This document shows, one piece after another, positions 522 to 31,585 of a stretch of 36,404 nucleotides of DNA. Position numbers and translations under genes: made by a program. Source of the stretch: a virus (taxonomy: Duplodnaviria > Heunggongvirae > Uroviricota > Caudoviricetes); IMG/VR virus record IMGVR_UViG_2923344815_000003, positions 1-36,404 of that record; one strand, written 5' to 3'. A model generated the notes under the pieces. It did not search any database. It had not been told where the DNA came from and saw only the letters and a list, made by a program, of their open reading frames with translations. Within the stretch, counting starts at the first letter, position 1, and every line of letters begins with the position of its first letter.

Positions 522-993
522 GTATTTGTATTTTGTTAAATGGCGGTAAAGTGGCGATGGTGTGGCGATATGCAGAAATAATGATAGTACACGTCTGTTT
601 AAACTCTAAGGGTGAAGCAAAACTCTCCTGCAACTCATCTGCATTTCGCATATTGAACTAGGGCCTTGGTTAAACCAAAGTTTTTTCTGGGATCTTCCCA
701 CTCAACTTCATTTTTCCTCCTACCATCCACCAAAAGGTGTCTGCGCTACTCTATCTTTTTTAATCTGACAACATCCTGAGAAAAGACAAATTCGTTAGAT
801 TTACTGTCTTTCTGCTGCCTCGAATGCTGATGTCTGCAGCACTGATAATAACTCTATCTCTTTGATATAGATCTTTTTTTTGATGAATTGCACGGCATAT
901 TATCGTGATTGCACCTTCTTGTTAAAGGTGTTGTACTCCTCATCTCGATTTTATGATGTGGGCTATGATTGGTTAGTAATAGAGTGTATCGGT

Positions 994-1275
994 ATGCGAT
1001 GTGGTTTATTAATGGCAATCTGCCTTTGTTTGGTATCTTTTAGTGGGTATGCAGCAACAGGAAAGTCAGATGCTCAGATCAAGAAAGAAATAATTAAAGA
1101 ATCCATTGAATCTTATCCAGGCAATTGTGCGTGTCCGTATAATCATGCAAGGAATGGTAGTAGATGTGGTGGACGCAGTGCATATAGCCGTACTGGAGGG
1201 TATGACGTGGTATGTTATGAAAGAGATGTTACCGATGAAATGATCCGGCAATGGAAGCAGGAGAATGCTGAGTAA
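994..1275 (+). CDS. small Cys-rich exported hypothetical protein (signal-peptide-like N-terminus)
   Basis: ORF 880-1275 in track; internal Met at 994 gives MRCGLLMAICLCLVSFSGYAA hydrophobic leader then Cys-rich mature part (GNCACPYN...RCGGRSAY...VVCYE); AT-rich by eye; start choice uncertain. Confidence 0.45.
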   Translation: MRCGLLMAICLCLVSFSGYAATGKSDAQIKKEIIKESIESYPGNCACPYNHARNGSRCGGRSAYSRTGGYDVVCYERDVTDEMIRQWKQENAE

Positions 1276-1352
1276 TCTCTTTTAACTGATTTGTTGTGCG
1301 AGCATTTTGTGCAGTTAACAGCTCACTAGCTAGTGAGAGTTCCAAAAAGAAA

Positions 1353-1376
1353 CCCCGCAGTTTTTACGCTGCGGGG
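1353..1376. terminator. bidirectional hairpin terminator
   Basis: ccccgcag / ctgcgggg stem; T-tract on plus side (ttgttatt) and on minus side (tttcttttt); lies between ORF 994-1275 and the hok/ogr transcription unit. Confidence 0.5.
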
Positions 1377-1464
1377 TTGTTATTCATGCCAATGAGATAG
1401 GGTGCCTTATCGGCCTTACCCTAGCAACCGATTGACGGGGAGTTGCCTCCCCGTCGCGGTTTCC

Positions 1465-1605
1465 TTACTGCTTACACTGTAAGAACGCCGCAAACTCCGC
1501 TCCCCAGAAGCTCATCCGTATTTCACACAGCGAACCGTGCAGCATCCAGATGATGAGGATTACCGTCACGCAGAACGTGATGGCCGTAAGCGATTTTTGC
1601 GACAT
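1465..1605 (-). CDS. hok: Hok/Gef-family type I toxin (small membrane peptide), 46 aa
   Basis: Hand translation of minus strand: MSQKSLTAITFCVTVILIIWMLHGSLCEIRMSFWGAEFAAFLQCKQ; TM helix followed by SLCEIR...EFAAF signature of Hok family; GGAG RBS upstream; too short to appear in the ORF track. Confidence 0.7.
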   Translation of the reverse strand: MSQKSLTAITFCVTVILIIWMLHGSLCEIRMSFWGAEFAAFLQCKQ

Positions 1606-1794
1606 AGCGCTTGCTCCTTTGTTGGAGAGGCGCTAACCTATCACTTGCTAGGTTGACGGGTTAGGGCCTCGGTTAAACAGAAATGTTTTCCGGGGCCTTT
1701 CCACATCCGGCCTTCGGGTATTCCCTCCGACCATCAGCCGAAAGGCACCCGCACGTAATCTATCGCTTTTTTGTTACTCCGGCAATTCTGCCTG

Positions 1795-2055
1795 TTAATT
1801 CTGAGGTAAAGGCAAACTCATCTGATTGTTTCCCCTGTGTGAAGCTGGCAGCTCATGCCACGGGATACCTTCTGATGAGTGAACGCCGGAGGCGTGTTTC
1901 GATGTGAATTTATGGAAAGCTTCCAGTGTTGAGAAGCATACGCCGCATTCCAGGTTGTTACACTGGTAATACTTTTGCCGCACGGTGTTTGAATCATTTT
2001 CCGGACGACTGGTGCGGATACGGGCAGATGCGCCACAAAGCGGACAACGGAACAT
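1795..2055 (-). CDS. ogr: Ogr/Delta-family zinc-finger late-gene activator
   Basis: MFRCPLCGASARIRTSR...YYQCNNLEC: C-x2-C ... C-x4-C arrangement and N-terminus as in P2 Ogr; AAGGGAGG RBS upstream. Confidence 0.85.
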   Translation of the reverse strand: MFRCPLCGASARIRTSRPENDSNTVRQKYYQCNNLECGVCFSTLEAFHKFTSKHASGVHSSEGIPWHELPASHRGNNQMSLPLPQN

Positions 2056-2097: not shown

Positions 2098-3207
2098 TCA
2101 CTCTGTTTCCGCTATCCATTCCGGGATTTTTGCCTCAAGCTCAAGCTGCGTGGTAAAGCCGCTGTTATCAATGGTGTGCCCGGCTTTTGCAATAATCCAG
2201 TCCTGATTATCAATCTCGCTTTTAAATCCTGTTACCGTGCCATGCATTTCGGGGTAGAGTTCTGCTCGTCCACGTGCCAGCGTGATGGAGAATGATGCGG
2301 CTCCGCGTTGTAGTTGTTGCCACTTTGCCGCCGCTGCGCGTCTTGCTGCCTGCTCGTTCTGATAAGTCTTGCGTAACACAAACACATTGCCTTCCGCGCC
2401 TTCCATATAATCACCTTCACGGCTGCTGCTTTTCTCTTTTTTCGGTTTTGGCGGTTTGCGGCGTTTCACGCTGACTTTTTTCTTTTTCCCGTAATTAAGA
2501 TCAAGCCAGTAAGCGCGTACCCCCGTATACGCTTCGCGGTCAGCAATGCGGAACTGATGGCGATCGCCGCTGCTGCGTGTGATGGCGAACGATGGCAACG
2601 GCTGGCCCTGTGCGTTCACGCCACCGCCGGGCATGATGAATAACAGATTGCCGCTTTTTACCGTGGTGATTGCGCCCAGCATTTCCGCCATGCGCGTAAG
2701 GAAGGACATGTCGCTTTCTTCGGTCTGGTCGGCGTGGTCGATTTCGATATCCATCAGCATTTCGCTGATTTGCGGTTTCAGACCATACCGATGAGCGATG
2801 GCGGATACCACACGCTCAACGGTCACATCATGCCAGGACACCTCACGTTTAACGTTAAATTCATCCCGAAAATCTGCGCTTCTGGCTGAAACAGTCAGCC
2901 TGTCCGGCGGTCCTTCGTGAGCGATTTCATCAACAATGTAAGTGCCTTTTTCTGTCAGCGGTTCTCCTTTCCAGCCAATGAGAACCGTCAGGCGCGCGCC
3001 CCGTGGCGGTAGCAGCAACTGACCATCCGCATCATCCAGCGTGATGGTGAGCTGGTCCGCCTCAAATCCCCGGTTGTCGGTCAGTGACAGGCTCATCAGG
3101 CGCTCTGCCACGCCTGACAGCGTTTTACCCTCCGCGAGAATATCAAAATCCGGCATTTTTACGGGGTCTGTGCCCTGACTGAGCAATTGCATGGTGGTGT
3201 CGGTCAT
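2098..3207 (-). CDS. D: P2 gpD-like tail protein (late control D)
   Basis: Track ORF 2098-3339; likely start at 3207 (MTDTTMQLL...) preceded by AGGGAGGGAG RBS; sequence typical of gpD family. Confidence 0.85.
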   Translation of the reverse strand: MTDTTMQLLSQGTDPVKMPDFDILAEGKTLSGVAERLMSLSLTDNRGFEADQLTITLDDADGQLLLPPRGARLTVLIGWKGEPLTEKGTYIVDEIAHEGPPDRLTVSARSADFRDEFNVKREVSWHDVTVERVVSAIAHRYGLKPQISEMLMDIEIDHADQTEESDMSFLTRMAEMLGAITTVKSGNLLFIMPGGGVNAQGQPLPSFAITRSSGDRHQFRIADREAYTGVRAYWLDLNYGKKKKVSVKRRKPPKPKKEKSSSREGDYMEGAEGNVFVLRKTYQNEQAARRAAAAKWQQLQRGAASFSITLARGRAELYPEMHGTVTGFKSEIDNQDWIIAKAGHTIDNSGFTTQLELEAKIPEWIAETE

Positions 3208-3364
3208 CTGCTCCCTCCCTGTGCGGCATGGTCGCATGTGCGTGCGGAGGGGGTTACTGCTTTTTGTTGTCGCCGTGGCGGGAGAACGGCGCAGGGGTGA
3301 GATTACGCGCGTGGTGGGTGATGATTGTTGCCGAATCATTTAACGGATACAAGGGGCTGAAGCT

Positions 3365-4549
3365 ATGAGTGAAACTCGTTTTCATGGTGCCCGTGTTACG
3401 GAAAATACCGACCTGGTAACAGCGATTAACGATGTTGATTCCAGCGTTATCGGTATCGTGGCAACGGCGGATGATGCGGACGCGAAGCTGTTCCCGCTGA
3501 ACAAGCCCACACTGCTGACCCGCGTCAATGACGTGCTGGGAAAATGCGGGACAACGGGGACGCTTTATCGTGCGCTTAAGGCCATCGCAGACCAGGTGAG
3601 CACAAAGGTGATCGTCGTTCGCGTGGCTGAACACAAAGAAGAAGACGGAAAAACGCAGGATCAACTGGTTATCGGTGGTTCTGAATCTGACGGCAGCTAT
3701 ACGGGGATGTATGCGCTGCTTGTTGCAGAGCAGGATGAAAGCATCGGATACCGTCCGCGTATTCTGGCCGCGCCGGAGCTGGACACGGAGGCGGTAACAA
3801 AATCCCTGTGCGTGATTGCGGGTAAACTGCGCGCGTTTGTGTATGCCTCATGTCACGGCTGTAACACGATGGCTGAGGCGATTACCTACCGCCAGAAATT
3901 CAACGAACGTGAGGTGATGCTCTTATGGCCGGACTTCATCGCCTACAACCCGAAAAGTGGCAAAAACGAAACGTTCCCCGCGCCTGCTTATGCGTGCGGC
4001 CTTCGTGCGTACATTGACCATGAGCAGGGCTGGCACAAATCACTGTCCAACGTTCCGGTTAAAAATGTGCTGGGGATGTCCCGGCATGTGTTCTGGTCGT
4101 TGCAGGCCGAAGACAGCGATGCCAACAGCCTCAATAACAAAGAAATCACGACCATTATTCGTCGCAACGGGTTCCGCTTCTGGGGCAACCGCACACCGGA
4201 AACGAACGCCTACATCTTTGAGGTGTATACCCGAACCGCACAGGTGCTGGCTGATTCAATTGCGGAAGCGCAGTTTGAAACCATCGACAGTCCACTGACG
4301 CCTGCGAACGTGAAAGATGTTATCAGTGCCATCAGGGCAAAACTGGATTCGCTGGTGACTGCCGGGAAACTGATTGGGGCGTCGTGCTGGTATGACGTGG
4401 TGGATAACGGCACCACGGATTTACGTCAGGGACGTGTGCGTATTCGCTACAAATATACGCCCGTTCCGCCACTGGAAGACATGGAGCTTTACCAGACGTT
4501 TACTGATGAATACTTTGAACCCGCATTTGCGGTGCTGGGAGGTGCCTGA
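3365..4549 (+). CDS. FI: contractile tail sheath protein (gpFI)
   Basis: 394 aa, size and sequence character of P2 FI sheath; followed directly by tube gene. Confidence 0.9.
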   Translation: MSETRFHGARVTENTDLVTAINDVDSSVIGIVATADDADAKLFPLNKPTLLTRVNDVLGKCGTTGTLYRALKAIADQVSTKVIVVRVAEHKEEDGKTQDQLVIGGSESDGSYTGMYALLVAEQDESIGYRPRILAAPELDTEAVTKSLCVIAGKLRAFVYASCHGCNTMAEAITYRQKFNEREVMLLWPDFIAYNPKSGKNETFPAPAYACGLRAYIDHEQGWHKSLSNVPVKNVLGMSRHVFWSLQAEDSDANSLNNKEITTIIRRNGFRFWGNRTPETNAYIFEVYTRTAQVLADSIAEAQFETIDSPLTPANVKDVISAIRAKLDSLVTAGKLIGASCWYDVVDNGTTDLRQGRVRIRYKYTPVPPLEDMELYQTFTDEYFEPAFAVLGGA

Positions 4550-5061
4550 TGGCTGTGCCAAAACATCTTCGCTTTTTTACGCTGTTTGTGGATGGTGAAA
4601 ACGAAGTGGGTAAGGTGACGTCCGTCACCCTGCCTAAACTGACGCGCAAAACCGACAGCTACCGGGGTGGTGGCATGATGGGGGCGGTAAGTATTGATCT
4701 CGGTCTGGACGACTCCGCGCTTGATGCGAGCTTTGTCATGGGGGGCGCAGTTCGTGAGCTGTTTCTTAAGTATGGCGGCACGATTGACGGCACGCTGCTG
4801 CGTTTTGCGGGTGAATACTACACCGATGCAGAAAGCGACCTGTATGAAGTCGAAATGCGCGGACGTGTGACGGAAATTGATATGGGGGAAGCCAAACAGG
4901 GCGAAGCCACATCACACACTTACGCCATTAAAAACACCTACTACAAGCTGAGTGTTAACGATCGCCCGTTGTGGGAGATTGACCTGCTGAACTTCATTTA
5001 CCGGAAGGACGGCAAGGACATTGTGCCCGATCGCATCCGTTCCGCGCTTGGGCTTGGCTGA
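4549..5061 (+). CDS. FII: tail tube protein (gpFII)
   Basis: 170 aa; start overlaps FI stop (ATGA-type overlap); P2 FII-like. Confidence 0.9.
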   Translation: MAVPKHLRFFTLFVDGENEVGKVTSVTLPKLTRKTDSYRGGGMMGAVSIDLGLDDSALDASFVMGGAVRELFLKYGGTIDGTLLRFAGEYYTDAESDLYEVEMRGRVTEIDMGEAKQGEATSHTYAIKNTYYKLSVNDRPLWEIDLLNFIYRKDGKDIVPDRIRSALGLG

Positions 5062-5116
5062 TAAGTAATATGCAGGCGGCGCAGTGCGTCGCCTCTGACT
5101 GAAAAGGAGACAACTG

Positions 5117-5491
5117 ATGAAAGACATCGATACTGAAACCCGGAATAACACCGTGGCGGATGATGTGACGGCAGGTGAGGATATGGCTGTCGAACGTGGC
5201 GTAAAACTGACCCGACCAATTGAGCGTGGTGGCGAAAAAATCACGTATGTGGAGATCACCGGGGCTATTGAGCAGGCTGGATCCCTGCGTGGTCTGTCGC
5301 TGTCTGATGTGCTGAATCTGAAAGCGGATACCATGTTTACGCTGTTGCCTCGCGTGACCTCGCCACGACTGGATGAAGTGATGATTAAAAAAATGTCGTC
5401 ACGCGATTTTATTCAGTTGTGCGCTGTGGCTGTAAATTTTATGAGCGAGCCAGACTCTGGCGCGAAGAGCGTGCAGGAGACGGCAGCGTAA
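5117..5491 (+). CDS. E: tail assembly chaperone gpE
   Basis: 124 aa ORF between tube and tape-measure genes, the conserved position of E. Confidence 0.8.
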   Translation: MKDIDTETRNNTVADDVTAGEDMAVERGVKLTRPIERGGEKITYVEITGAIEQAGSLRGLSLSDVLNLKADTMFTLLPRVTSPRLDEVMIKKMSSRDFIQLCAVAVNFMSEPDSGAKSVQETAA

Positions 5492-8968: not shown

Positions 8969-8993
8969 ACCGCTAATGGCCAGATTAGCGGTT
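8969..8993. terminator. bidirectional terminator between convergent U and invertase genes
   Basis: accgctaat / attagcggt stem, T-tracts on both strands. Confidence 0.5.
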
Positions 8994-9575
8994 ATTTTGT
9001 TTACTCTTCTCAATTGTTCCGCTTGATTCTCCTGCGGGGTGGTAACGATAAATCGTCGATGTACCAATGCCGTAAATTATTGCCAGTTGTTTTCTGTCGT
9101 GCCCGTTTTTAATCAGCCTTGCTATTTGCTCATTCTGTTCTATTGTCAGCTTCGGGCGACGTCCGCCTGTGCGTCCTTGTGCGCGTGCTGCTGCCAGACC
9201 GGCCAGTGTACGCTCTACAATTAATTCACGTTCCATTTCAGCCAGGGCACCCATCACGTGGAAGAAAAAACGCCCCATTGGAGAAGATGTATCTATGCTG
9301 TCGGTCAGACTGCGAAAATTAATCCCTCGCTCCCGTAGTTCCCCGACGAGAGAAATCAGATGTTTCATGCTTCGCCCGAGGCGATCCAGTTTCCAGACAA
9401 CCAGCGTGTCACCTTGTTGAAGGCGCTTTAAAGCGCGTTTTAATCCCGGTCGGTCTGTCTTTGTCCCGCTTAATTTATCTTCAAATATTTGTTCACATCC
9501 TGCACAAACAAGAGCGTTTCGTTGCAGGTCTGTATTCTGGTCATTTGTTGATACCCTTACATAGCCAATCAGCAC
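8985..9575 (-). CDS. Gin/Cin/Pin/Hin-family serine DNA invertase
   Basis: VLIGYVRVSTNDQNTDLQRNAL... catalytic Ser region, C-terminal HTH; near-identical in its N-terminal two-thirds to Mu Gin as I recall it; GTG start at 9575 with GGGAGA RBS (track ORF starts 9593). Confidence 0.9.
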   Translation of the reverse strand: MLIGYVRVSTNDQNTDLQRNALVCAGCEQIFEDKLSGTKTDRPGLKRALKRLQQGDTLVVWKLDRLGRSMKHLISLVGELRERGINFRSLTDSIDTSSPMGRFFFHVMGALAEMERELIVERTLAGLAAARAQGRTGGRRPKLTIEQNEQIARLIKNGHDRKQLAIIYGIGTSTIYRYHPAGESSGTIEKSKQNNR

Positions 9576-9629
9576 ACTGAATCTCCCGTCCAAAAGCGCA
9601 AATCATGCCATGCAGGCCAGAAACGGCCA

Positions 9630-9655
9630 TTATCTAAAACCTCGGTTTACAGGAA
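9630..9655. other. gix/cix-like recombination site (left)
   Basis: ttatctaaaacc-tc-ggtttacaggaa: 12-2-12 dyad matching the Gin/Cin crossover-site consensus as I recall it. Confidence 0.7.
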
Positions 9656-9711
9656 ACGGTAAATCAGGCTTCTGGCGCATTACAGAAAAAACAGAACGGC
9701 GCAGATATTCC
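9642..9711. repeat. left arm of 70-bp perfect inverted repeat bounding the invertible tail-fibre segment
   Basis: Reverse complement of 12621-12690 is identical base for base (checked by hand). Confidence 0.8.
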
Positions 9712-10636
9712 CGATAAAAAACTATTCCTGCGTAATATCGGCACAACAAATTCAACAACCATGTCTTTTAGTGGTGGTGCTGGATGGTTCAAACTGGCAA
9801 CTGTAACAATGCCACAAGCCAGTTCCGTGATTTACATAAGCCTGATTGGTGGCGCAGGGTATAACGTTGGCTCCTCGCATCAAGCAGGCATCTCTGAGCT
9901 GGTTCTGCGTGCCGGAAATGGGAATCCAAAAGGTATTACTGGTGCATTATGGCGACGGACATCGGTTGGATTTACTAATTTTGCATGGGTGAATACATCC
10001 GGTAATACCTATGATGTTTATGTTGAAATAGGTAATTACGCCACAGGTGTTAATATTCAGTGGGATTATACCAGTAACGCCAGCGTAACGATTCATACAT
10101 CACCAACTTATACAGCGAATAAACCAACAGGCCTGACAGATGGAACTGTATATGTAATTTACAGTTCGCACATTAAACCGACTGCTGCTGAGGTTGGGGC
10201 GTTGTCATTATCTGGCGGTCAATTGAATGGTGCACTGGGCATCGGAACATCCAGTGCTCTTGGTGGTAACTCGATTGTTTTGGGTGATAATGACACGGGA
10301 TTTAAACAAAATGGCGACGGGTATCTGGATGTTTATGCGAATAACGTCCATGTTATGCGCTTTGTCTCCGGCAGCATTCAAAGTAATAAAACCATAAATA
10401 TTACAGGGCGTGTTAACCCCTCGGATTACGGTAACTTTGATTCCCGTTATGTGAAAGATGTTCGCCTGGGTACGCGTGTTGTTCAATTGATGGCGCGTGG
10501 TGGTCGTTATGAAAAAGCCGGACACGCAATTACCGGATTAAGAATCATTGGTGAAGTAGATGGCGATGATGAAGCCATCTTCAGACCAATACAAAAATAC
10601 ATCAATGGCACATGGTATAACGTCGCACAGGTGTAA
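9644..10636 (+). CDS. alternative tail-fibre C-terminal exon (silent in this orientation)
   Basis: Reading frame open from the crossover site; first 23 codons (LGLQETVNQASGALQKKQNGADIP) identical to the corresponding stretch of H; C-terminus ...INGTWYNVAQV resembles the H C-terminus; track ORF 9761-10636 is the Met-initiated part. Confidence 0.75.
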   Translation, partial: GLQETVNQASGALQKKQNGADIPDKKLFLRNIGTTNSTTMSFSGGAGWFKLATVTMPQASSVIYISLIGGAGYNVGSSHQAGISELVLRAGNGNPKGITGALWRRTSVGFTNFAWVNTSGNTYDVYVEIGNYATGVNIQWDYTSNASVTIHTSPTYTANKPTGLTDGTVYVIYSSHIKPTAAEVGALSLSGGQLNGALGIGTSSALGGNSIVLGDNDTGFKQNGDGYLDVYANNVHVMRFVSGSIQSNKTINITGRVNPSDYGNFDSRYVKDVRLGTRVVQLMARGGRYEKAGHAITGLRIIGEVDGDDEAIFRPIQKYINGTWYNVAQV

Positions 10637-10639
10637 ATT

Positions 10640-11167
10640 ATGCAGCATTTAAAAAATATTAAGTCAGGAAATCCAAAAACAAAAGAGCAATATCAGCTAA
10701 CAAAGAATTTTGATGTTATCTGGTTATATACAGAAGACGGTAAAAACTGGTATGAGGAAGTAAATAACTTTCAGGACGACACCATAAAGATTGTATACGA
10801 CGAAAATAATATTATTGTCGCCATCACCAAAGATGCCTCCACGCTTAACCCTGAAGGTTTTAGCGTTGTCGAGGTTCCTGATATTACCGCCAACCGACGT
10901 GCTGATGACTCAGGTAAATGGATGTTTAAGGATGGTGCTGTGATTAAGCGGATTTATACGGCTGACGAACAGCAACAACAGGCCGAATCACAAAAGGCCG
11001 CGTTGATTTCTGAAGCTGAAAGCGTTATTCAGCCACTGGAACGCGCTGTCAGGCTGAATATGGCGACGGATGAAGAGCGTAGCCGACTGGAAGCATGGGA
11101 ACGCTACAGTGTTATGGTCAGCCGTGTGGATACGGCAAAGCCCGAATGGCCACAAAAGCCTGAGTAA
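10640..11167 (+). CDS. alternative tail-fibre assembly chaperone (silent partner)
   Basis: 175 aa, N-terminus [22 protein letters not shown] nearly identical to the convergent chaperone at 11196-11729. Confidence 0.8.
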
Positions 11168-11172
11168 AAATT

Positions 11173-11192
11173 AAGGCCCGATATCGGGCCTT
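11173..11192. terminator. palindromic hairpin between convergent assembly-chaperone genes
   Basis: aaggcccgat / atcgggcctt perfect palindrome. Confidence 0.45.
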
Positions 11193-11195
11193 CTC

Positions 11196-11729
11196 TCATT
11201 CTGGTTGTTCGGGAAACGTTACTGGCAAGCTGGAAGTGTCTGTAGATTCGACTTTCTGCGCAAAGAGCATCCACTCTGTTAATTTTTGTTTATTCTCGTC
11301 GGAAATGATGCCCAGCCGTAGCTGTGAGTCCCATAGCTGGGTTTTATCCCTGACGAGCTGTAGCAGGCTTTGCTTTTCATTTTCCGCCTGCTGCCTCTGC
11401 TCTTCCTCGGTATAAGTTCGCCTTACCACTACGCCATCTTTGAACATCCATTTACCCGAAATATCAGCCCGGCGATTTGCTGTAATATCAGGAACCTCAA
11501 CGACGCTTGCGCCTTCTGGATTAATTGCTGAAACATCCTTTTCAATACAAATAATAACGCCGTTACGGTCATAGACCATTTTCAACGTATCAGGCTGAAA
11601 GTTCTTTTGTTCCTCATACCAGTTTTTTCCATCATCTGAATAAAGCCATTTGATGTTAAATTGCTTTGTTAGCTGGTATTGCTCTTTTGTTTTAGGGTTG
11701 CCAGCAGTAATATTTTTTAAGTGCATCAT
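11196..11729 (-). CDS. tail-fibre assembly chaperone (expressed copy)
   Basis: 177 aa, immediately downstream of H on the same strand. Confidence 0.85.
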   Translation of the reverse strand: MMHLKNITAGNPKTKEQYQLTKQFNIKWLYSDDGKNWYEEQKNFQPDTLKMVYDRNGVIICIEKDVSAINPEGASVVEVPDITANRRADISGKWMFKDGVVVRRTYTEEEQRQQAENEKQSLLQLVRDKTQLWDSQLRLGIISDENKQKLTEWMLFAQKVESTDTSSLPVTFPEQPE

Positions 11730-11731
11730 AA

Positions 11732-14098
11732 TTAAATACTCCCCGCGTTATACCACGTTCCATTAATGCAATACTGAATTGGCCTTGCCTGAGTTGTATC
11801 AATTAATTCATCACGGTTTCCGTTAACTGAACCCGTAACGACATAACCTGACCTGTCAGACCAGCCGGGACCATTCCATGTCTGAACAGATGACAGACCG
11901 CCCAGGCGAATACCTGTAATAAACCTTGAGTTACATTCTGCCTGCGTATATGCACCAACATCCCCCGCAGAGGGTTTGCGGGTTGTGGTGTAAAACTCTG
12001 ACCAGTTAGCTTCAAAGCCATAACCATCACGCGCTGAACGATAAAAGATACCGCCGTTTTTATAATTCACGCGGAACTGTACAGCAGGGCAACTCCCCGC
12101 ATTCATATTAAAGTGGAGGATTAATGTCGATGCGCCACTGATATCTGCATCATAAACGCCGCTATTCCAGTTCCAGCCAACAGCTTTATCATTTGCAACC
12201 CTGCTTCCTGTTTGCCCTAAAGCAAATGCAGGCTGCTGGTTTTTCGTGTTGTAGTCTCGTCGCCAGCCAGGAGCATAAGCATCACCATGATTAATATAGG
12301 TGAATTGAGCGTTAGTAATTCCGCCGCCGCTGGACGTACTCGCCGTAGTAACGCGTATGGTCATTGCGCCGCGAGTGCCAATAACTTCCACCACTGCACC
12401 TGCAAGACAAATATTTCCGCAACCTGTATCTGTAATGACCTTATTGTTTGCATAAGCCCATGAGCCTTTGCACATCCAGTAAGGATGGTTAAATGCCCCC
12501 TGACTCTCCAGCCACGAAATGAATTGTGCGGTTGTCCAGGTCTGACTATCGCCACCAATATTCAGCCATGCGCTATATGCGCGGCAGGCACCAATATTTT
12601 TGGTGAAGGTATCTTTTCCCGGAATATCTGCGCCGTTCTGTTTTTTCTGTAATGCGCCAGAAGCCTGATTTACCGTTTCCTGTAAACCGAGGTATTCGAT
12701 AACAGCGGCAACGGTCGATTTCGCAAGAATATCCCGCCCGACTTTTGTCAGGGTTGCCAGGCTGGCGACATCATTCCCCGTAAAATACGGAAACCTGTCT
12801 GCCGCAGTAGCAAGCCCGGCCAGCGCCGTCAGGGTGGCATCTTTCGGTTGCTTACCCGCAAGCGCGTTAGTCATGGTGGTCGCAAAATTCGGGTCGTTGC
12901 CCAGCGCCGCCGCCAGCTCGTTCAGCGTATTCAGTGCGTCAGGCGACGAGTCTACAAGTGCGGCAATCGCGGCCATCACATAAGCCGTGCTTGCGATCTG
13001 AGTATTATTAGTCCCTTTTGGCGCAGTTGGCGTTGTTGGCGTTCCGGTCAGCGCAGGACTGTTTAAAGGCGCTTTCTTGTTCGTTTCATCCATTACCGCC
13101 TTAACCGCTTTCGGTGTCGCGGCCAGTGTTTCAGACGTGCTGTTGGTGGCACTACTGAGCTGGACTATCCCTTTTTGTGCCGTCGTGGCGTCCTGAGCGG
13201 TATATTTTGCGTTAGCAAGGTCATACGCGGCCTTTACTGCTTTCGGCGTTGCAGCCTGCGTTTCAGACGTGCTGTTGGTGGCGCTACTGAGCTGGACAAG
13301 GCCTTTTCGCGTCGTGCTGGCATCCTGCGCAGTATATTTTCCGTTAGCAAGGTCATACGCGGCCTTTACTGCTTTCGGCGTTGCAGCCTGCGTTTCAGAC
13401 GTGCTGTTGGTGGCGCTACTGAGCTGAACTATCCCTTTCCGCGCAATGGTAGCGTCCTGTGCGGTGTATTTGCCATTAGCCAGGTCATATGCTGCCTTTA
13501 ATGCTTTCGGCGTTGCAGCCTGCGTTTCAGATGTGCTGTTAGTGGCGCTACTGAGTTGAACAAAGCCTTTTGCGGTCAGCGAGGCGTCCGGGTGACGTCG
13601 TGACCGTTCATGCTCTTTCAGTTTGTCATCCACGTAATCCACTGTGGCCATCACCATGGTGTTATCCACGGTAAGCGCCACGGTGGCAGTGCTGGATACG
13701 GTCAGAATGGTGCGAAACGTTTGTGCACGACCGGACCCTTCGGCAACGGCTGGCTTGTAACTTTCGGCAGTATTGCCCACCGCGATTAAATCGCCGTGCT
13801 CATCAAATACACCAATTTCCCGGATCCAGAATCCGCCCGTTTCAGGAGGAATAACCAGCTCCGCAATAATGCGGTTCTGATGTGTTGCGTCCAGGATGAC
13901 GCGATTAACAGTGTGTCGCCACACCTCATGCACCAGACGGGTCTGCTTACTGTCTGGTGTGGGCAACGTGCCGCCACCGTCGCCCACGGCCATATGAGTC
14001 AGGCAGACAGGCTTACCATCTGGCGCGGCTGCCTGCGCTAATTTTTTTGCACCCGTATCGGTGATAACGGTTTTAAATTTTCGTGTTGTGGTACTCAT
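11732..14098 (-). CDS. H: tail fibre protein gpH (constant N-terminal part plus currently joined variable C-terminal part)
   Basis: 788 aa; conserved P2 H-like N-terminus; four tandem ~40-aa fibre repeats; gix-like site inside the gene at 12677-12702. Confidence 0.9.
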   Translation of the reverse strand: MSTTTRKFKTVITDTGAKKLAQAAAPDGKPVCLTHMAVGDGGGTLPTPDSKQTRLVHEVWRHTVNRVILDATHQNRIIAELVIPPETGGFWIREIGVFDEHGDLIAVGNTAESYKPAVAEGSGRAQTFRTILTVSSTATVALTVDNTMVMATVDYVDDKLKEHERSRRHPDASLTAKGFVQLSSATNSTSETQAATPKALKAAYDLANGKYTAQDATIARKGIVQLSSATNSTSETQAATPKAVKAAYDLANGKYTAQDASTTRKGLVQLSSATNSTSETQAATPKAVKAAYDLANAKYTAQDATTAQKGIVQLSSATNSTSETLAATPKAVKAVMDETNKKAPLNSPALTGTPTTPTAPKGTNNTQIASTAYVMAAIAALVDSSPDALNTLNELAAALGNDPNFATTMTNALAGKQPKDATLTALAGLATAADRFPYFTGNDVASLATLTKVGRDILAKSTVAAVIEYLGLQETVNQASGALQKKQNGADIPGKDTFTKNIGACRAYSAWLNIGGDSQTWTTAQFISWLESQGAFNHPYWMCKGSWAYANNKVITDTGCGNICLAGAVVEVIGTRGAMTIRVTTASTSSGGGITNAQFTYINHGDAYAPGWRRDYNTKNQQPAFALGQTGSRVANDKAVGWNWNSGVYDADISGASTLILHFNMNAGSCPAVQFRVNYKNGGIFYRSARDGYGFEANWSEFYTTTRKPSAGDVGAYTQAECNSRFITGIRLGGLSSVQTWNGPGWSDRSGYVVTGSVNGNRDELIDTTQARPIQYCINGTWYNAGSI
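12621..12690. repeat. right arm of 70-bp perfect inverted repeat
   Basis: Reverse complement equals 9642-9711. Confidence 0.8.
12677..12702. other. gix/cix-like recombination site (right), inside H
   Basis: ttcctgtaaacc-ga-ggtattcgataa. Confidence 0.7.
13100..13590. repeat. four tandem ~120-bp repeats inside H (tail-fibre repeat domain)
   Basis: Protein repeat VQLSSATNSTSETQAATPKAVKAAYDLANGKYTAQDA x4; DNA units nearly identical. Confidence 0.8.
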
Positions 14099-26428: not shown

Positions 26429-26740
26429 TTACTCAGGAAATAACGCCCGGATATTCCCAGCCATCTGGCTGGTTATCTTAGCCACTGGTGCAGACTGTGC
26501 TTCAAACTTTTTTGAGCTGATTTGTGTCACAGGTAACATCTCATCATCAGCCCATGCGGCCAGTCGGTAAGCCTCTGCCGGATTCGTCTTCAGAAGTGCC
26601 AGCCCGGCCAGAAAAGCCACGCGTTGGCCGCTTTTGCGGGCTTCTGGTGTAAGGCTGTCCAGCCAGGCGCATGCTTCTCCTTCGTTCTTGACGGCAGCTG
26701 GCTTCAGATAGAAACTTATTCTTCTGGTTGGTGTCGTCAT
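26429..26740 (-). CDS. parR: ParR-like centromere-binding adaptor
   Basis: 103 aa directly downstream of the ParM-like gene; ISFYLKP...WLDSL...AFLAGLAL resembles the ParR N-terminal region as I recall it. Confidence 0.65.
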   Translation of the reverse strand: MTTPTRRISFYLKPAAVKNEGEACAWLDSLTPEARKSGQRVAFLAGLALLKTNPAEAYRLAAWADDEMLPVTQISSKKFEAQSAPVAKITSQMAGNIRALFPE

Positions 26741-26744
26741 TGGT

Positions 26745-27704
26745 TTACTCCTTGTTCATTGCGTACAGCCCATTAACCAGAGCAAAATGTGGCACCCCGT
26801 CCGTGATGAAAGTCGCATTAACTCCGCAGGCTTCGCGGATAGCGGGTGCCACAATCTCCGCCCCTCCACCGACAACCATCACCCGCCCGTAACCGGAAAA
26901 ACCCGCCAGCGCGCGGATCACTCGTTGTTTCAGTGTCTCCTCCTTTTCACGAATAACCGCCATCAGGCTGTTGTAATGCGCGTCATTGTGAATGTGCTGG
27001 CGCAGCCAGGCTTCATCGTGACGGTGCTCAATAATGGTATTGGCGATGTGGTGACTGGTACGCATACCGTTAGTGGCCATCACCGACAGCACGGCATCAG
27101 CCATCAGGGAAACGCCTACGTGTGGATCGCAAAACACCTGGCTGATACCTGCCAGCTGCCCCTGAACCTTTGCCACATCCAGCGTGGTTCCGCCCAAATC
27201 CACAATCAGCAGGGATTCAAACGGACTCATGTCAGCCAGTGCCTTAAAGCCAGCCGGAATGGATTCAGGCATAACCCGCACGTTACGGATAGTGAATGCT
27301 TCGCCGTTCTGGTACTCCACCGGGCGCATAACGTTCGCTTTTTTGCGGTTGATGTTGGCTATGTCCGGCTGTGCGTTTGTGTCGAAATACTCGCTCAGTG
27401 GCAGGGTGACAACCACATCCACCTCCTGTGGCGTGATGCCTGATTTGACCAGCGCGTGATGAATGGCAATGACATTCACATCACTGTACTGGTATTGCGT
27501 GTCGGTCGTCTGGACAAAGCGATCGCTGACCGGATCAAAACCATAGCGCACGCCATCAAGCATGTAGTTCGCGGGCTGCGTGTCACCGAACGGCGCAGAC
27601 CATTCCGACTTGAAGCTGTTCGGGCTGATGGCGTTGCGGCGTTCGCCGTTCTCAGTCCATGCCAGCTTGATGTTGGTGGAGCCGTCGTCGATACAAATTT
27701 TCAT
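26745..27704 (-). CDS. parM: ParM/StbA-family actin-like segregation ATPase
   Basis: 319 aa; MKICIDDGSTNIKLAW, ISPNSFK, YSDVNV, DLGGTTLDV, VVGGGA actin-fold motifs; close to plasmid R1 ParM along the whole length from memory. Confidence 0.85.
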   Translation of the reverse strand: MKICIDDGSTNIKLAWTENGERRNAISPNSFKSEWSAPFGDTQPANYMLDGVRYGFDPVSDRFVQTTDTQYQYSDVNVIAIHHALVKSGITPQEVDVVVTLPLSEYFDTNAQPDIANINRKKANVMRPVEYQNGEAFTIRNVRVMPESIPAGFKALADMSPFESLLIVDLGGTTLDVAKVQGQLAGISQVFCDPHVGVSLMADAVLSVMATNGMRTSHHIANTIIEHRHDEAWLRQHIHNDAHYNSLMAVIREKEETLKQRVIRALAGFSGYGRVMVVGGGAEIVAPAIREACGVNATFITDGVPHFALVNGLYAMNKE

Positions 27705-27735
27705 GTCGCTTTTCCTTATGTTGATTAATTAATCG

Positions 27736-27773
27736 TTTACGGGATTCTGAAATCCCGTTTTTGCCTGTTTTGT
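27736..27773. repeat. direct repeat copy 1 (39 bp with internal dyad) just upstream of parM
   Basis: tttacgggattctgaaatcccgtttttgcctgttttgtg. Confidence 0.7.
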
Positions 27774-27780
27774 GCGCGCT

Positions 27781-31263: not shown

Positions 31264-31442
31264 GGTGTGGCCTCTACGTGTGTAAGTTTTGAAAACTCAC
31301 CATCCAGAGCTGCGAAACTGTGGGTGGCGAGACGTACGAGGTTCGCAGTACCGGCAAACGCAGAACCCGGCCCGACCGAAGTCGGCCCCGTACGCCCCAC
31401 CATAATTCTGATGCGAAAAAGACGTGGCGATACAGTACGCAC

Positions 31443-31463
31443 AAAAAAACCGCTGGCGCGGTT
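31443..31463 (-). terminator. candidate intrinsic terminator inside the early region (minus strand)
   Basis: accgc-gcca-gcggt hairpin followed by T7 on the minus strand. Confidence 0.4.
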
Positions 31464-31585
31464 GTGCGCTACGTTTGTCAGCGGGCTGCGAAACCCGGCA
31501 CCCGTTTTATGAGGTGCAGCGGAAATGTAACCTGACTGATTGCGGCATGGCAAGCGGTTTTTTTGTGTGTGCATGTTCTGGTTTC

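What the first reader, a model, noticed from the sequence alone, without database searches (positions are those of the whole stretch)
1465..1794. Unlisted Hok/Gef-type toxin gene at the prophage edge
A 46-aa minus-strand ORF, absent from the ORF track, has a TM helix followed by SLCEIR...EFAAF, which I recognise as the Hok family signature. About 190 bp separate it from the ogr stop, room for a mok leader and sok antisense RNA, neither of which I could delineate. A type I toxin-antitoxin placed co-directionally just downstream of ogr is an unusual neighbour.
Basis: partly seen in the sequence, partly recalled or inferred. Interest (0 to 1): 0.5.

Follow-up and report, generated by a model that had tools for sequence, protein, structure and literature searches.

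The report
Hok/Sok toxin-antitoxin cassette in a prophage
The small minus-strand ORF is a real Hok-family membrane toxin gene with its full regulatory RNA and a predicted Sok antisense gene, but it is already annotated and catalogued, and it is a common passenger of P2-like prophages.

Summary
ORF 1465-1605 (-) encodes a 46-aa Hok/Gef peptide: Pfam HOK_GEF scores 30.1 bits against a cut-off of 22, and all seven conserved Hok positions are present. Around it lies an intact hok/sok-type cassette. It comprises a hok promoter, an mRNA of about 400 nt, and a 5'-3' end pairing (tac 1750-1742 with fbi 1408-1400) that is supported by compensatory changes in 26 homologues. It also has a 3' stem-loop, a terminator, and on the + strand a predicted sok promoter (TTGCTC-17 nt-TAACCT, 1611-1639) and hairpin (1663-1699).

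One classical part is missing. None of 60 homologous loci has a mok reading frame.

The find is not new. RefSeq annotates the gene as WP_000078920.1. Phage P88-type records call it "MokW-like". The exact peptide is listed in cluster 72 of a 2025-26 Hok catalogue, where a peptide differing by one residue was toxic.

The ogr neighbour is normal. At least 1,181 E. coli records carry the same ogr-hok junction.

Interest is low. The only open nuance is how this mok-less subfamily couples Sok to hok translation.

The parts
1465..1605 (-). hok coding sequence, 46 aa (cluster-72, HokA-like Hok/Gef toxin)
   Evidence: ORF. Pfam HOK_GEF 30.1 bits against a cut-off of 22. phrog_251 82.8 bits. RefSeq WP_000078920.1 'Hok/Gef family protein'. 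The exact peptide is sequence 1628 in the supplement of bioRxiv 10.1101/2025.08.07.668861.
1757..1785 (-). predicted hok promoter: -35 TTGCCG (1785-1780), 17-nt spacer, -10 TAGATT (1762-1757), +1 at G1750
   Evidence: Read from the sequence. The -10 aligns with TAGAAT of 933W hokW, and the 5' end aligns with that of R1. It matches 8 of 12 consensus positions, so the scanner did not list it. Inferred, not shown.
1345..1750 (-). predicted full-length hok mRNA, about 400 nt
   Evidence: The 5' end is set by homology to R1 and hokW. The 3' end is set by the intrinsic terminator. MFE is -182.3 kcal/mol, z = -6.6 against shuffles.
1738..1750 (-). tac element GGGUGCCUU (1750-1742) plus covarying extension UCGG (1741-1738)
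   Evidence: Invariant in 26 homologues. It pairs with fbi in both the MFE and the RNAalifold consensus.
1692..1699 (-). ucb / anti-SD-like box AAGGCCCC, the alternative partner of tac
   Evidence: The Rfam RF01794 structure pairs it with tac. 96.6% of cells pair, but there is no covariation, so this is uninformative either way.
1627..1670 (-). sokT-like stem-loop: GAGGCCCUAACC (1670-1659) paired with GGUUAGCGCCUC (1638-1627), with a hypervariable loop at 1658-1639. It is homologous to the R1/hokW hairpin that carries the mok AUG, but here it has no start codon.
   Evidence: RNAalifold helix 5, 97.9% paired. Alignment with hokW and R1. Absence of a start codon.
1614..1618 (-). hok Shine-Dalgarno AGGAG, 8 nt before the ATG
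   Evidence: Read from the sequence. Conserved in the alignment. The catalogue's Table S2 gives 'GGAGC' as the predicted SD for 72_1621.
1485..1605 (-). helix occluding the start codon: AUGUCGCAAAAAUCGC (1605-1590) paired with GCGGAGUUUGCGGCGU (1500-1485) inside the coding region
   Evidence: RNAalifold helix 6: 14 pairs, 99.7% paired, only wobble-compatible changes. It accounts for invariant synonymous sites.
1426..1461 (-). 3' stem-loop after the hok stop codon, the presumed 3' end protector of the processed mRNA
   Evidence: Helices 11-12. Five of the 9 pairs in helix 12 show compensatory changes. The role is inferred from R1 (PMC9841398).
1400..1413 (-). fbi element AAGGCACCC (1408-1400) plus covarying extension CCGA (1413-1410)
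   Evidence: The 7 scored tac-fbi core pairs (GGGUGCC 1750-1744 with GGCACCC 1406-1400; the full elements are 9 nt) are invariant or wobble. All 4 extension pairs change on both sides (UA/CG, CG/GC, GC/AU). Homology among loci ends just 3' of this element.
1351..1378 (-). intrinsic terminator of the hok mRNA (bidirectional hairpin)
   Evidence: Found by the terminator scan on both strands.
1611..1639 (+). predicted sok promoter: -35 TTGCTC (1611-1616), 17-nt spacer, -10 TAACCT (1634-1639)
   Evidence: It has the same geometry and position as R1-type (TTGCGC-17-TATCCT) and 933W sokW (TTGCCT-17-TAACCT). The sokW 5' end annotated in 933W lies 7 nt after that -10. The promoter-less sokW mutant of PMC8621323 was made with a primer that alters this GGTTAG motif (my reading of the primer table).
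1646..1705 (+). predicted Sok antisense RNA, about 55-70 nt: a 5' tail complementary to the variable loop, then a hairpin at 1663-1699
   Evidence: Fold energy -28.8 kcal/mol, z = -3.3. The hairpin is 95% paired across 22 sequences. Conserved G.U pairs form only on this strand, and there is one GC to AU compensatory pair. The ends are inferred by analogy with the 71-nt sokW. There are no expression data.
1795..2055 (-). ogr/Delta-type late-gene activator, the upstream neighbour. No terminator lies between it and the hok promoter.
   Evidence: Pfam Ogr_Delta 52.4 bits. The terminator scan finds none between 1456 and 2200.

Best explanation
Region 1345-1785 is an intact hok/sok-type type I toxin-antitoxin cassette. 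It is carried as accessory cargo between ogr and attL of a P88-like (Xuanwuvirus, P2-like) prophage inserted at the 3' end of tRNA-Leu(UAA).

Proposed mechanism, minus strand:
- A weak constitutive promoter makes a stable hok mRNA of about 400 nt.
- The mRNA's 5' end (tac) pairs with its 3' end (fbi).
- The start codon is buried in a helix with the distal coding region, so the full-length RNA is not translated.
- By analogy with R1, slow 3' trimming back to the stem-loop at 1461-1426 removes fbi and lets the leader refold.

Proposed mechanism, plus strand:
- A promoter overlapping the hok ribosome-binding region makes a short, unstable Sok RNA.
- Its 5' tail pairs with the variable leader loop and its hairpin region pairs with the leader.
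- This marks the processed mRNA for decay and keeps Hok off.
- If sok transcription stops, through loss of the element or a shut-off of transcription, Sok decays first. The 46-aa Hok peptide is then made, inserts into the inner membrane and kills or arrests the cell.

What is shown: the toxin's family membership, the end-pairing and 3' stem-loop (by covariation), and the conserved geometry of the antisense promoter.

What is inferred: transcription of both RNAs, 3' processing, toxicity of this exact peptide, and the biological role. The role could be prophage retention, help with lysis, or exclusion of other phages.

Unlike R1 and hokW, this subfamily has no mok frame. Coupling of Sok to hok translation must therefore be mok-independent or use an unrecognised leader event.
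For: Toxin:
- Pfam HOK_GEF is above its gathering score, and phrog_251 scores 82.8 bits.
- All seven positions conserved in more than 80% of Hok peptides (M1, C16, T18, L30, C31, E32, E41 in R1 numbering) are present.
- The exact peptide is in the published catalogue. Its one-residue neighbour 72_1621 was among the 42 of 45 tested peptides that were toxic.

hok mRNA:
- The Rfam hok-leader model aligns end to end with E = 1.2e-08.
- The window's own MFE forms tac-fbi, z = -6.6.
- RNAalifold on 26 homologues recovers the same end pairing.
- 98.2% of cells pair, against about 40% when partners are slid. 15 pairs change on both sides, and 0 of 500 shuffles reach the observed values.
- The tac-fbi extension covaries at 4 of 4 pairs.

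Sok:
- The -35/17 nt/-10 arrangement is positionally identical to R1-type and to sokW of 933W. sokW is experimentally verified (PMC8621323).
- The hairpin has strand-specific G.U pairs.

Module integrity and spread:
- The ORF is intact in 26 of 26 loci.
- Homology between unrelated phages starts at the hok -10 and stops just after fbi.

Context:
- Annotated as Hok/Gef or MokW-like in E. coli genomes and in P88, Chuche and related phages.
Against: - No transcript data exist for either strand.
- RF01794 scores 47.3 bits, below its gathering score of 59, and is absent from the gathering-level scan.
- The NCBIfam HokA and Hok models are far below their cut-offs: 35.8 against 89, and 23.6 against 73.
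- Both promoters are weak matches to consensus and were not picked up by the scanner.
- The tac-ucb alternative helix shows no covariation, and the MFE of a 3'-truncated RNA does not form it. The activating refold is therefore unproven here.
- The mok frame, which is essential in R1, is absent. The R1 mechanism cannot apply in full.
- The predicted Sok ends 28 nt upstream of the hok SD.
Confidence: 0.88

Rival explanations
1. The cassette is a lysis helper rather than an addiction module. On prophage induction Sok disappears, and read-through from the late D-ogr transcription unit raises hok mRNA. Hok then permeabilises the membrane early and increases phage release, as reported for hokW-sokW of the Stx2 prophage Sp5.
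For: - In Sp5, deleting hokW-sokW delayed growth arrest after mitomycin C and halved phage release. SokW vanished after induction (PMC8621323).
- In this window hok is co-directional with D and ogr, and no terminator lies between the ogr stop and the hok promoter.
- The same Hok subfamily also sits in Stx phages.
Against: - hokW is a different paralogue: 51 aa, HokD cluster, with mok.
- No induction data exist for this phage type.
- Read-through RNA would still carry tac and fbi.
- The effect in Sp5 was only two-fold.
Confidence: 0.3
2. The cassette defends the lysogen against other phages by abortive infection. Shut-off of host transcription by an infecting lytic phage stops sok synthesis, Hok is made, and the cell dies before the invader matures.
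For: - R1 hok/sok on a high-copy plasmid reduced T4 plating efficiency and plaque size (cited in PMC8621323).
- P2-like prophages commonly carry anti-phage cargo at variable loci (general knowledge).
- The cassette sits in the variable att-proximal cargo region. In phage Chuche that region also holds a methyltransferase gene and a com gene.
Against: - The Hok catalogue found no enrichment of hok next to defence systems (section heading).
- The R1 effect was modest and needed high copy number.
- Nothing was tested for this subfamily.
Confidence: 0.2
3. The locus is a decaying relic. The ORF and leader are recognisable, but loss of mok has made the toxin untranslatable, as with several inactivated chromosomal hok loci of E. 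coli K-12.
For: - No mok frame exists in 60 of 60 loci. [quoted passage not shown]
- K-12 hokA/mokA is disrupted by IS150.
- A clearly degenerate partial copy lies nearby at 659-771.
Against: - The ORF, its own strong SD (AGGAG, 8 nt spacing), tac, fbi, the 3' stem-loop and the sok promoter are all kept across E. coli, E. albertii, Salmonella, Citrobacter and Klebsiella loci down to about 60% identity, with compensatory RNA changes. That pattern indicates purifying selection on both the protein and the RNA.
- Retaining an antitoxin promoter is hard to explain if the toxin were silent.
Confidence: 0.07

Closest known systems
hok/sok (parB) of plasmid R1
   Same: - A small Hok membrane toxin with the L-C-E motif.
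- An mRNA of about 400 nt with tac at the 5' end and fbi near the 3' end, followed by a terminator.
- A ucb-like box and a GAGG-containing leader hairpin.
- A 3' stem-loop after the stop codon.
- An antisense promoter of the form -35, 17 nt, -10 overlapping the hok ribosome-binding region.
   Different: - Protein identity is only 33%, and the peptide is 46 aa rather than 52.
- There is no mok start codon or frame.
- About 8 nt fewer lie between the antisense -35 and the hok ATG, which puts the TAG of GGUUAG in frame (worked out by hand from the sequence).
- It sits in a prophage rather than on a plasmid.
- The RF01794 score is 47 bits, against 87 bits for the R1-type control.
hokW-sokW of Stx2 prophage Sp5 / phage 933W
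   Same: - Phage-borne hok/sok with the identical antisense -10 (TAACCT) and 17-nt spacer.
- Similar tac (GGGUGC...) and hok -10 (TAGAAT/TAGATT).
- Placed among accessory genes near a prophage end.
- Shown experimentally to be a type I TA system (PMC8621323).
   Different: - HokW is 51 aa and belongs to the HokD cluster (35_712).
- mokW is annotated in frame with hokW.
- The host element is lambdoid, not P2-like.
- Stx phages also carry a second locus of the present 46-aa subfamily, 83% identical in DNA and often unannotated.
Cluster 72 of the Hok catalogue (Escalera-Maurer et al., bioRxiv 10.1101/2025.08.07.668861)
   Same: - The window's peptide is listed verbatim as sequence 1628.
- 72_1621 differs only by V15A, and it and 72_1589 were among the peptides tested and not listed as non-toxic.
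- The paper reports enrichment of hok in prophages.
   Different: The catalogue deliberately analysed only the coding sequence. It did not annotate mok, sok or the mRNA structure (Discussion), and it does not describe the ogr-att position.
hokA/sokA of the E. coli chromosome
   Same: It is the best NCBIfam hit (HokA equivalog). The C-terminal motif is shared...SLCEL...AAFLACK in HokA...SLCEI...AAFLQCK here.
   Different: - The score is far below the equivalog cut-off: 35.8 bits against 89.
- The leader DNA is unrelated just upstream of the start.
- K-12 mokA is annotated in frame with hokA and is truncated by IS150.

Membership tests
Hok/Gef toxin family (Pfam PF01848) | Profile match above the curated gathering score | tested here: met
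   30.1 bits against 22, residues 7-44 on profile positions 5-42 of 42. phrog_251 scores 82.8 bits.
Hok/Gef toxin family (Pfam PF01848) | A peptide of about 50 aa with an N-terminal hydrophobic helix and the conserved positions M1, C16, T18, L30, C31, E32, E41 (R1 numbering) | tested here: met
   The alignment to R1 Hok places M1, C12, T14, L26, C27, E28 and E37 at those positions.
Hok/Gef toxin family (Pfam PF01848) | Toxic when expressed | not testable with these tools
   Peptide 72_1621, 45 of 46 residues identical, is in the tested set. Only 19_179, 60_1482 and 69_1540 were reported non-toxic.
NCBIfam HokA equivalog NF007290 / Hok subfamily NF007279 | Score above the curated cut-off | tested here: not met
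   35.8 bits against 89, and 23.6 bits against 73. The peptide is neither HokA itself nor a member of the R1-type subfamily.
[quoted passage not shown] | Long-range 5'-3' end pairing (tac-fbi) in the full-length mRNA | tested here: met
   Formed in the single-sequence MFE and in the RNAalifold consensus. The 7 core pairs are invariant or wobble, and the 4 extension pairs are all compensatory. Controls are clean.
[quoted passage not shown] | Alternative tac-ucb pairing in the processed mRNA | tested here: inconclusive
   96.6% of cells pair, but there is no covariation. The MFE of a 3'-truncated RNA does not form it.
[quoted passage not shown] | A cis-encoded antisense Sok RNA with its own promoter, complementary to the leader | tested here: inconclusive
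   The promoter geometry is identical to R1-type and to sokW of 933W. The hairpin is 95% paired and has strand-specific G.U pairs. There is no expression evidence.
[quoted passage not shown] | An overlapping mok leader frame whose translation is needed for hok | tested here: not met
   In-frame TAG codons lie at 1650-1648 and in GGUUAG. No ATG, GTG or TTG lies 3-15 nt after GAGG, and no leader ORF crossing the hok start is conserved. The controls, 933W mokW and R1-type, do have one.
[quoted passage not shown] | Rfam RF01794 (hok leader/sok) at the gathering score | tested here: not met
   47.3 bits against 59. The full model 1-157 aligns with E = 1.2e-08. The R1-type control scores 87.2 bits.
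[quoted passage not shown] | A stable stem-loop 3' of the stop codon, followed by fbi and a terminator | tested here: met
   Helices 11-12 have 5 compensatory pairs. The terminator is at 1378-1351.
P2-like (Peduoviridae, Xuanwuvirus) prophage cargo | Lies inside a prophage with D, ogr, sheath, gpA and integrase genes, between ogr and the att site | tested here: met
   Pfam hits for the phage genes. 95-96% DNA identity to phages P88, Chuche and P884B11. The att region is at the 3' end of tRNA-Leu.

The most novel reading that the evidence does not exclude
Cluster-72 hok/sok cassettes may form a subfamily that has lost mok. Under this reading hok is translated from its own SD, and Sok binds at least 25 nt upstream of that SD. 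Sok would then control the toxin only through RNA decay or leader refolding, or through an unrecognised mini-ORF such as GUG-AUA-GGU-UAG at 1644-1633. That would be a departure from the R1 paradigm, in which mok translation is obligatory. A weaker addition: the cassette rides with an R1-type parM/parR pair in the same integrating phage, which hints at an episomal phase in which post-segregational killing would matter.
Probability: 0.4. Interest if true: 0.35.

Novelty: already known. Interest (0 to 1): 0.18.

Why it matters
It matters little for discovery. The gene is annotated in more than a thousand E. coli genomes, and it belongs to a catalogued Hok cluster in which two peptides, one differing from it by a single residue, were toxic when tested.

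The work does have three uses.
- It gives a base-level map of the whole cassette (promoters, tac, fbi, Sok) for a subfamily that so far has been described only at the peptide level.
- It shows that the module's recombination boundaries coincide with the hok -10 and with fbi.
- It flags that this abundant prophage-borne subfamily lacks mok. Those studying type I toxin-antitoxin regulation could test that directly.

For genome annotation, it is a reminder that length cut-offs hide such genes.

Tried and rejected
I used a 23-sequence alignment instead.
- The IMG/VR scan returned mostly near-identical loci, so I obtained diversity from genome contigs and the look-up of encoding contigs.
- The promoter scanner found neither P_hok nor P_sok. 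Both are weak consensus matches and rest on homology.
- Rfam at gathering level does not list sok.
- The NCBIfam Hok models are below their cut-offs.
- I looked for mok in all three frames and at the position homologous to the R1/hokW AUG. None is present. A long ORF from the ATG at 1734 reads into hok in a few homologues only. It lacks an SD and is not conserved, so I rejected it.
- I considered the 3-codon GUG ORF at 1644-1633 as a mini-mok. GUG is present in only about 20 of 26 loci, so I kept it as speculation.
- Folding a 3'-truncated mRNA did not reproduce the tac-ucb switch.
- The partial second leader copy at 659-771 does not fold better than shuffles and lacks the sok promoter. I treat it as a relic.
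- A literature search for hok in P2-like or P88 phages found nothing specific.
- My first reading of the fbi coordinates (1412-1404) was wrong. One search corrected it to 1408-1400.

Full report
**Where the window comes from.** The window opens with the glyW-cysT-leuZ tRNA cluster: tRNA-Gly 152-227, tRNA-Cys 282-355 and tRNA-Leu(UAA) 368-454. The rest is a P2-like prophage.
- Bases 1300-2100 are 100% identical to ETEC H10407 and a dozen other E. coli chromosomes.
- They are 95-96% identical to phages P88, Chuche, P884B11 and relatives (Peduoviridae, Xuanwuvirus).
- The phage genes include gpD (2098-3339), ogr (1795-2055), sheath, gpA and an integrase at the far end.
- The left attachment region is the 3' end of tRNA-Leu plus its terminator, at about 440-523. 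Several prophage-derived phage records carry it, and it resembles the attP of mEp390.

**The observation.** ORF 1465-1605 (-) exists and encodes MSQKSLTAITFCVTVILIIWMLHGSLCEIRMSFWGAEFAAFLQCKQ.
- Pfam HOK_GEF scores 30.1 bits against a gathering cut-off of 22.
- PHROG 251, 'MokW-like host killing', scores 82.8 bits.
- The NCBIfam HokA and Hok-subfamily models hit but stay far below their cut-offs. This is therefore a distinct subfamily, not HokA or R1 Hok.
- Aligned to R1 Hok (33% identity), it keeps all seven positions conserved in more than 80% of Hok peptides.
- Sixty-eight database clusters from E. coli, Shigella, Salmonella and Klebsiella match. Those that carry a source name are all called 'Hok/Gef family protein' (or, once, 'protein HokA').

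**Already known.**
- RefSeq annotates the gene (WP_000078920.1 in H10407), and phage records call it 'MokW-like host killing protein'.
- The exact peptide is sequence 1628 in the supplementary alignments of Escalera-Maurer et al. (bioRxiv 10.1101/2025.08.07.668861).
- Their cluster 72 is classed as a high-abundance cluster. Two of its members were cloned for toxicity tests. One of them, 72_1621, differs from this peptide only by V15A.
- The text reports 42 of 45 tested peptides as toxic and names the three exceptions. None is from cluster 72.
- The same paper reports that hok is enriched in prophages.

**Anatomy of the hok mRNA (minus strand).**
- The Rfam family called 'sok' (RF01794) actually models the sense-strand leader up to the hok AUG. 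An R1-type control scores 87 bits on the hok strand.
- In the window the model aligns end to end to 1750-1595 at 47.3 bits, E = 1.2e-08, below the gathering score of 59.
- By alignment with R1-type and 933W hokW, the mRNA starts at G1750. It lies downstream of TTGCCG (1785-1780), a 17-nt spacer and TAGATT (1762-1757).
- It ends at the terminator at 1378-1351, giving about 400 nt.
- Folding 1750-1345 gives -182.3 kcal/mol (z = -6.6). The 5' GGGUGCCUU (1750-1742) pairs with AAGGCACCC (1408-1400).

**Comparative test of that fold.** I aligned 26 homologous loci from E. coli phages, E. albertii, an Stx phage, Salmonella, Citrobacter and Klebsiella, with region identity down to about 60%.
- RNAalifold independently recovers the end pairing.
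- On that consensus structure, 98.2% of cells form standard pairs, against 38-42% when partners are slid by 1-3 columns.
- Fifteen pairs change on both sides, against 8.3 expected, and 0 of 500 shuffles reach the observed values.
- The 7-bp tac-fbi core that was scored (GGGUGCC 1750-1744 with GGCACCC 1406-1400) is invariant or wobble. The adjacent 4-bp extension (1741-1738 with 1413-1410) is compensatory at all four pairs.
- The stem-loop after the stop codon (1461-1426) has five compensatory pairs.
- A 14-bp helix buries the start codon (1605-1590 with 1500-1485). It explains why synonymous sites in GCGGAGUUUGCGGCG never vary.
- The alternative tac-ucb helix (ucb at 1699-1692) is conserved but does not covary, so it is neither supported nor contradicted. 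A truncated RNA did not adopt it in the MFE.

**The antisense gene (plus strand).**
- In R1-type, 933W and the window, the strand opposite the hok ribosome-binding region carries a -35, exactly 17 nt, and a -10. The sequences are TTGCGC/TATCCT, TTGCCT/TAACCT and TTGCTC/TAACCT (1611-1616 and 1634-1639).
- The 933W record annotates sokW (71 nt) starting 7 nt after that -10.
- Takada et al. showed that sokW is made and neutralises HokW. Their promoter-less mutant was built with a primer that rewrites the GGTTAG motif, which is my reading of their Table 2 (PMC8621323).
- By analogy, Sok here starts near 1646. Its 5' tail is complementary to the leader loop at 1658-1639, which is the most variable stretch of the whole alignment. 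That fits a specificity determinant.
- The hairpin at 1663-1699 folds at -28.8 kcal/mol, z = -3.3.
- Across 22 sequences the hairpin is 95% paired on this strand. It has one GC to AU compensatory pair and two conserved G.U pairs that would be A.C mismatches on the hok strand.
- This is good circumstantial evidence, but no transcript has been seen.

**No mok.**
- In 933W, mokW is annotated in frame with hokW, starting 57 nt upstream.
- The R1-type locus has an ATG 8 nt after GAGG.
- In the window the homologous GAGG (1670-1667) is invariant, but the codon at the mok position is CGU and that frame closes after five codons.
- The hok frame carries TAG at 1650-1648 and again inside GGUUAG.
- The spacing from GGUUAG to the ATG is 8 nt shorter than in hokW and R1.
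- In 60 of 60 unique loci there is an in-frame stop between GAGG and the ATG, and no ATG, GTG or TTG lies 3-15 nt after GAGG.
- Leader ORFs that do exist differ in frame and end point between loci.
- hok has its own AGGAG 8 nt upstream of the ATG (1618-1614).
- The cassette therefore works like hok/sok in its RNA architecture but fails one classical membership feature. How Sok, which ends 28 nt upstream of the SD, blocks Hok synthesis is open.

**The neighbourhood is ordinary.**
- At least 1,181 E. coli records contain 80% or more of the 801-bp ogr-hok stretch.
- 88 of 102 fetched loci have ogr upstream on the same strand, 83 of them at about 190 nt. That set is biased towards close relatives.
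- A Salmonella prophage at a different att site, beside ihfA/pheT, has the same D-ogr-hok order.
- The subfamily also occurs at the ends of lambdoid and Stx prophages and as tandem pairs.
- Homology between unrelated carriers begins at the hok -10 and ends just after fbi. The cassette therefore moves as a unit within the att-proximal cargo region.
- In this window that region (525-1345) always accompanies the prophage. It holds a degenerate second leader copy (659-771) and a small cysteine-rich ORF.

**Function.** The RNA logic predicts killing whenever sok transcription stops. Which situation selects for this in a prophage is unknown. I rank three candidates:
- retention of the element, the classical role, and notable because the phage also carries parM/parR;
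- help with lysis on induction, shown for hokW-sokW;
- abortive infection against other phages, shown weakly for R1 hok/sok.

A fourth reading, a silent relic, is unlikely given the joint conservation of protein, RNA structure and antitoxin promoter.

**Verdict.** Interest is low. The single point worth a specialist's attention is the consistent absence of mok in this abundant prophage-borne subfamily.

Noticed in passing
window 659-771 (-): A diverged partial second copy of the hok promoter and 5' leader, running from tac to GAGGCCCUA, lies in the att-proximal cargo. It stops before the sok promoter and has no hok ORF. The antisense of this stretch (655-730, + strand) folds no better than shuffles. 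It looks like the relic of a tandem hok/sok copy. Intact tandems exist in Salmonella loci L102/L103 and in L022.
   Followed up: partly
window 26432-27847 (-): An R1-type partition cassette lies directly downstream of replication gene A. It comprises ParM/StbA (26748-27704; Pfam StbA_N 276 bits and ParM_N 226 bits), ParR/StbB (26432-26740; Plasmid_stab_B 83 bits), and upstream direct repeats at 27733-27774 and 27806-27847 that could be a parC centromere. An integrating P2-like phage therefore carries homologues of both R1 stability loci, parMRC and hok/sok.
   Followed up: partly
window 31320-31517 (-): Rfam finds a C4 antisense RNA (80.4 bits against 45) and an adjacent IsrK Hfq-binding sRNA (69.6 bits against 50), both above gathering. 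This is the P1/P7/P4-type RNA immunity element pair inside this P2-like prophage.
   Followed up: no
window 8988-14098: This appears to be an invertible host-range segment. It has a Hin/Gin-type serine invertase (8988-9593, -), two opposed tail-fibre assembly genes (10640-11164 + and 11199-11729 -), and a 788-aa tail fibre (11735-14098, -) containing three 132-nt-spaced repeats at 13098-13571.
   Followed up: no
window 994-1275 (+): A 93-aa ORF with a signal-peptide-like N-terminus and several cysteines lies between attL and hok. It matches phrog_27544 (unknown function, 196 bits), has no Pfam or NCBIfam family, and is annotated as hypothetical in RefSeq. It shares the bidirectional terminator at 1351-1378 with hok.
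   Followed up: partly
L005 (phage Lyz12581Vzw) and Stx2a phage records H33-H40: Stx2 phages carry a locus of this same 46-aa Hok subfamily, 83% identical in DNA over the whole mRNA. It is separate from the studied hokW-sokW and has no annotated feature in many records ('none').
   Followed up: partly
L001 (ETEC H10407) 4206-5357; L006 (O157:H7): In H10407 and in O157:H7 strains the same prophage has an IS30 insertion that splits or truncates gpD. In O157:H7 the ogr-hok segment is missing next to the IS. The window's copy has an intact D gene.
   Followed up: no
L022 1090-1227 (+): A related Xuanwuvirus-type contig has an extra, divergent 45-aa Hok-like gene (49% identical, MSSNNIFILIICIIITLSIWILYGSLCELRALMWGDEFTDFLQCK) inserted between ogr and the 46-aa hok.
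   Followed up: no
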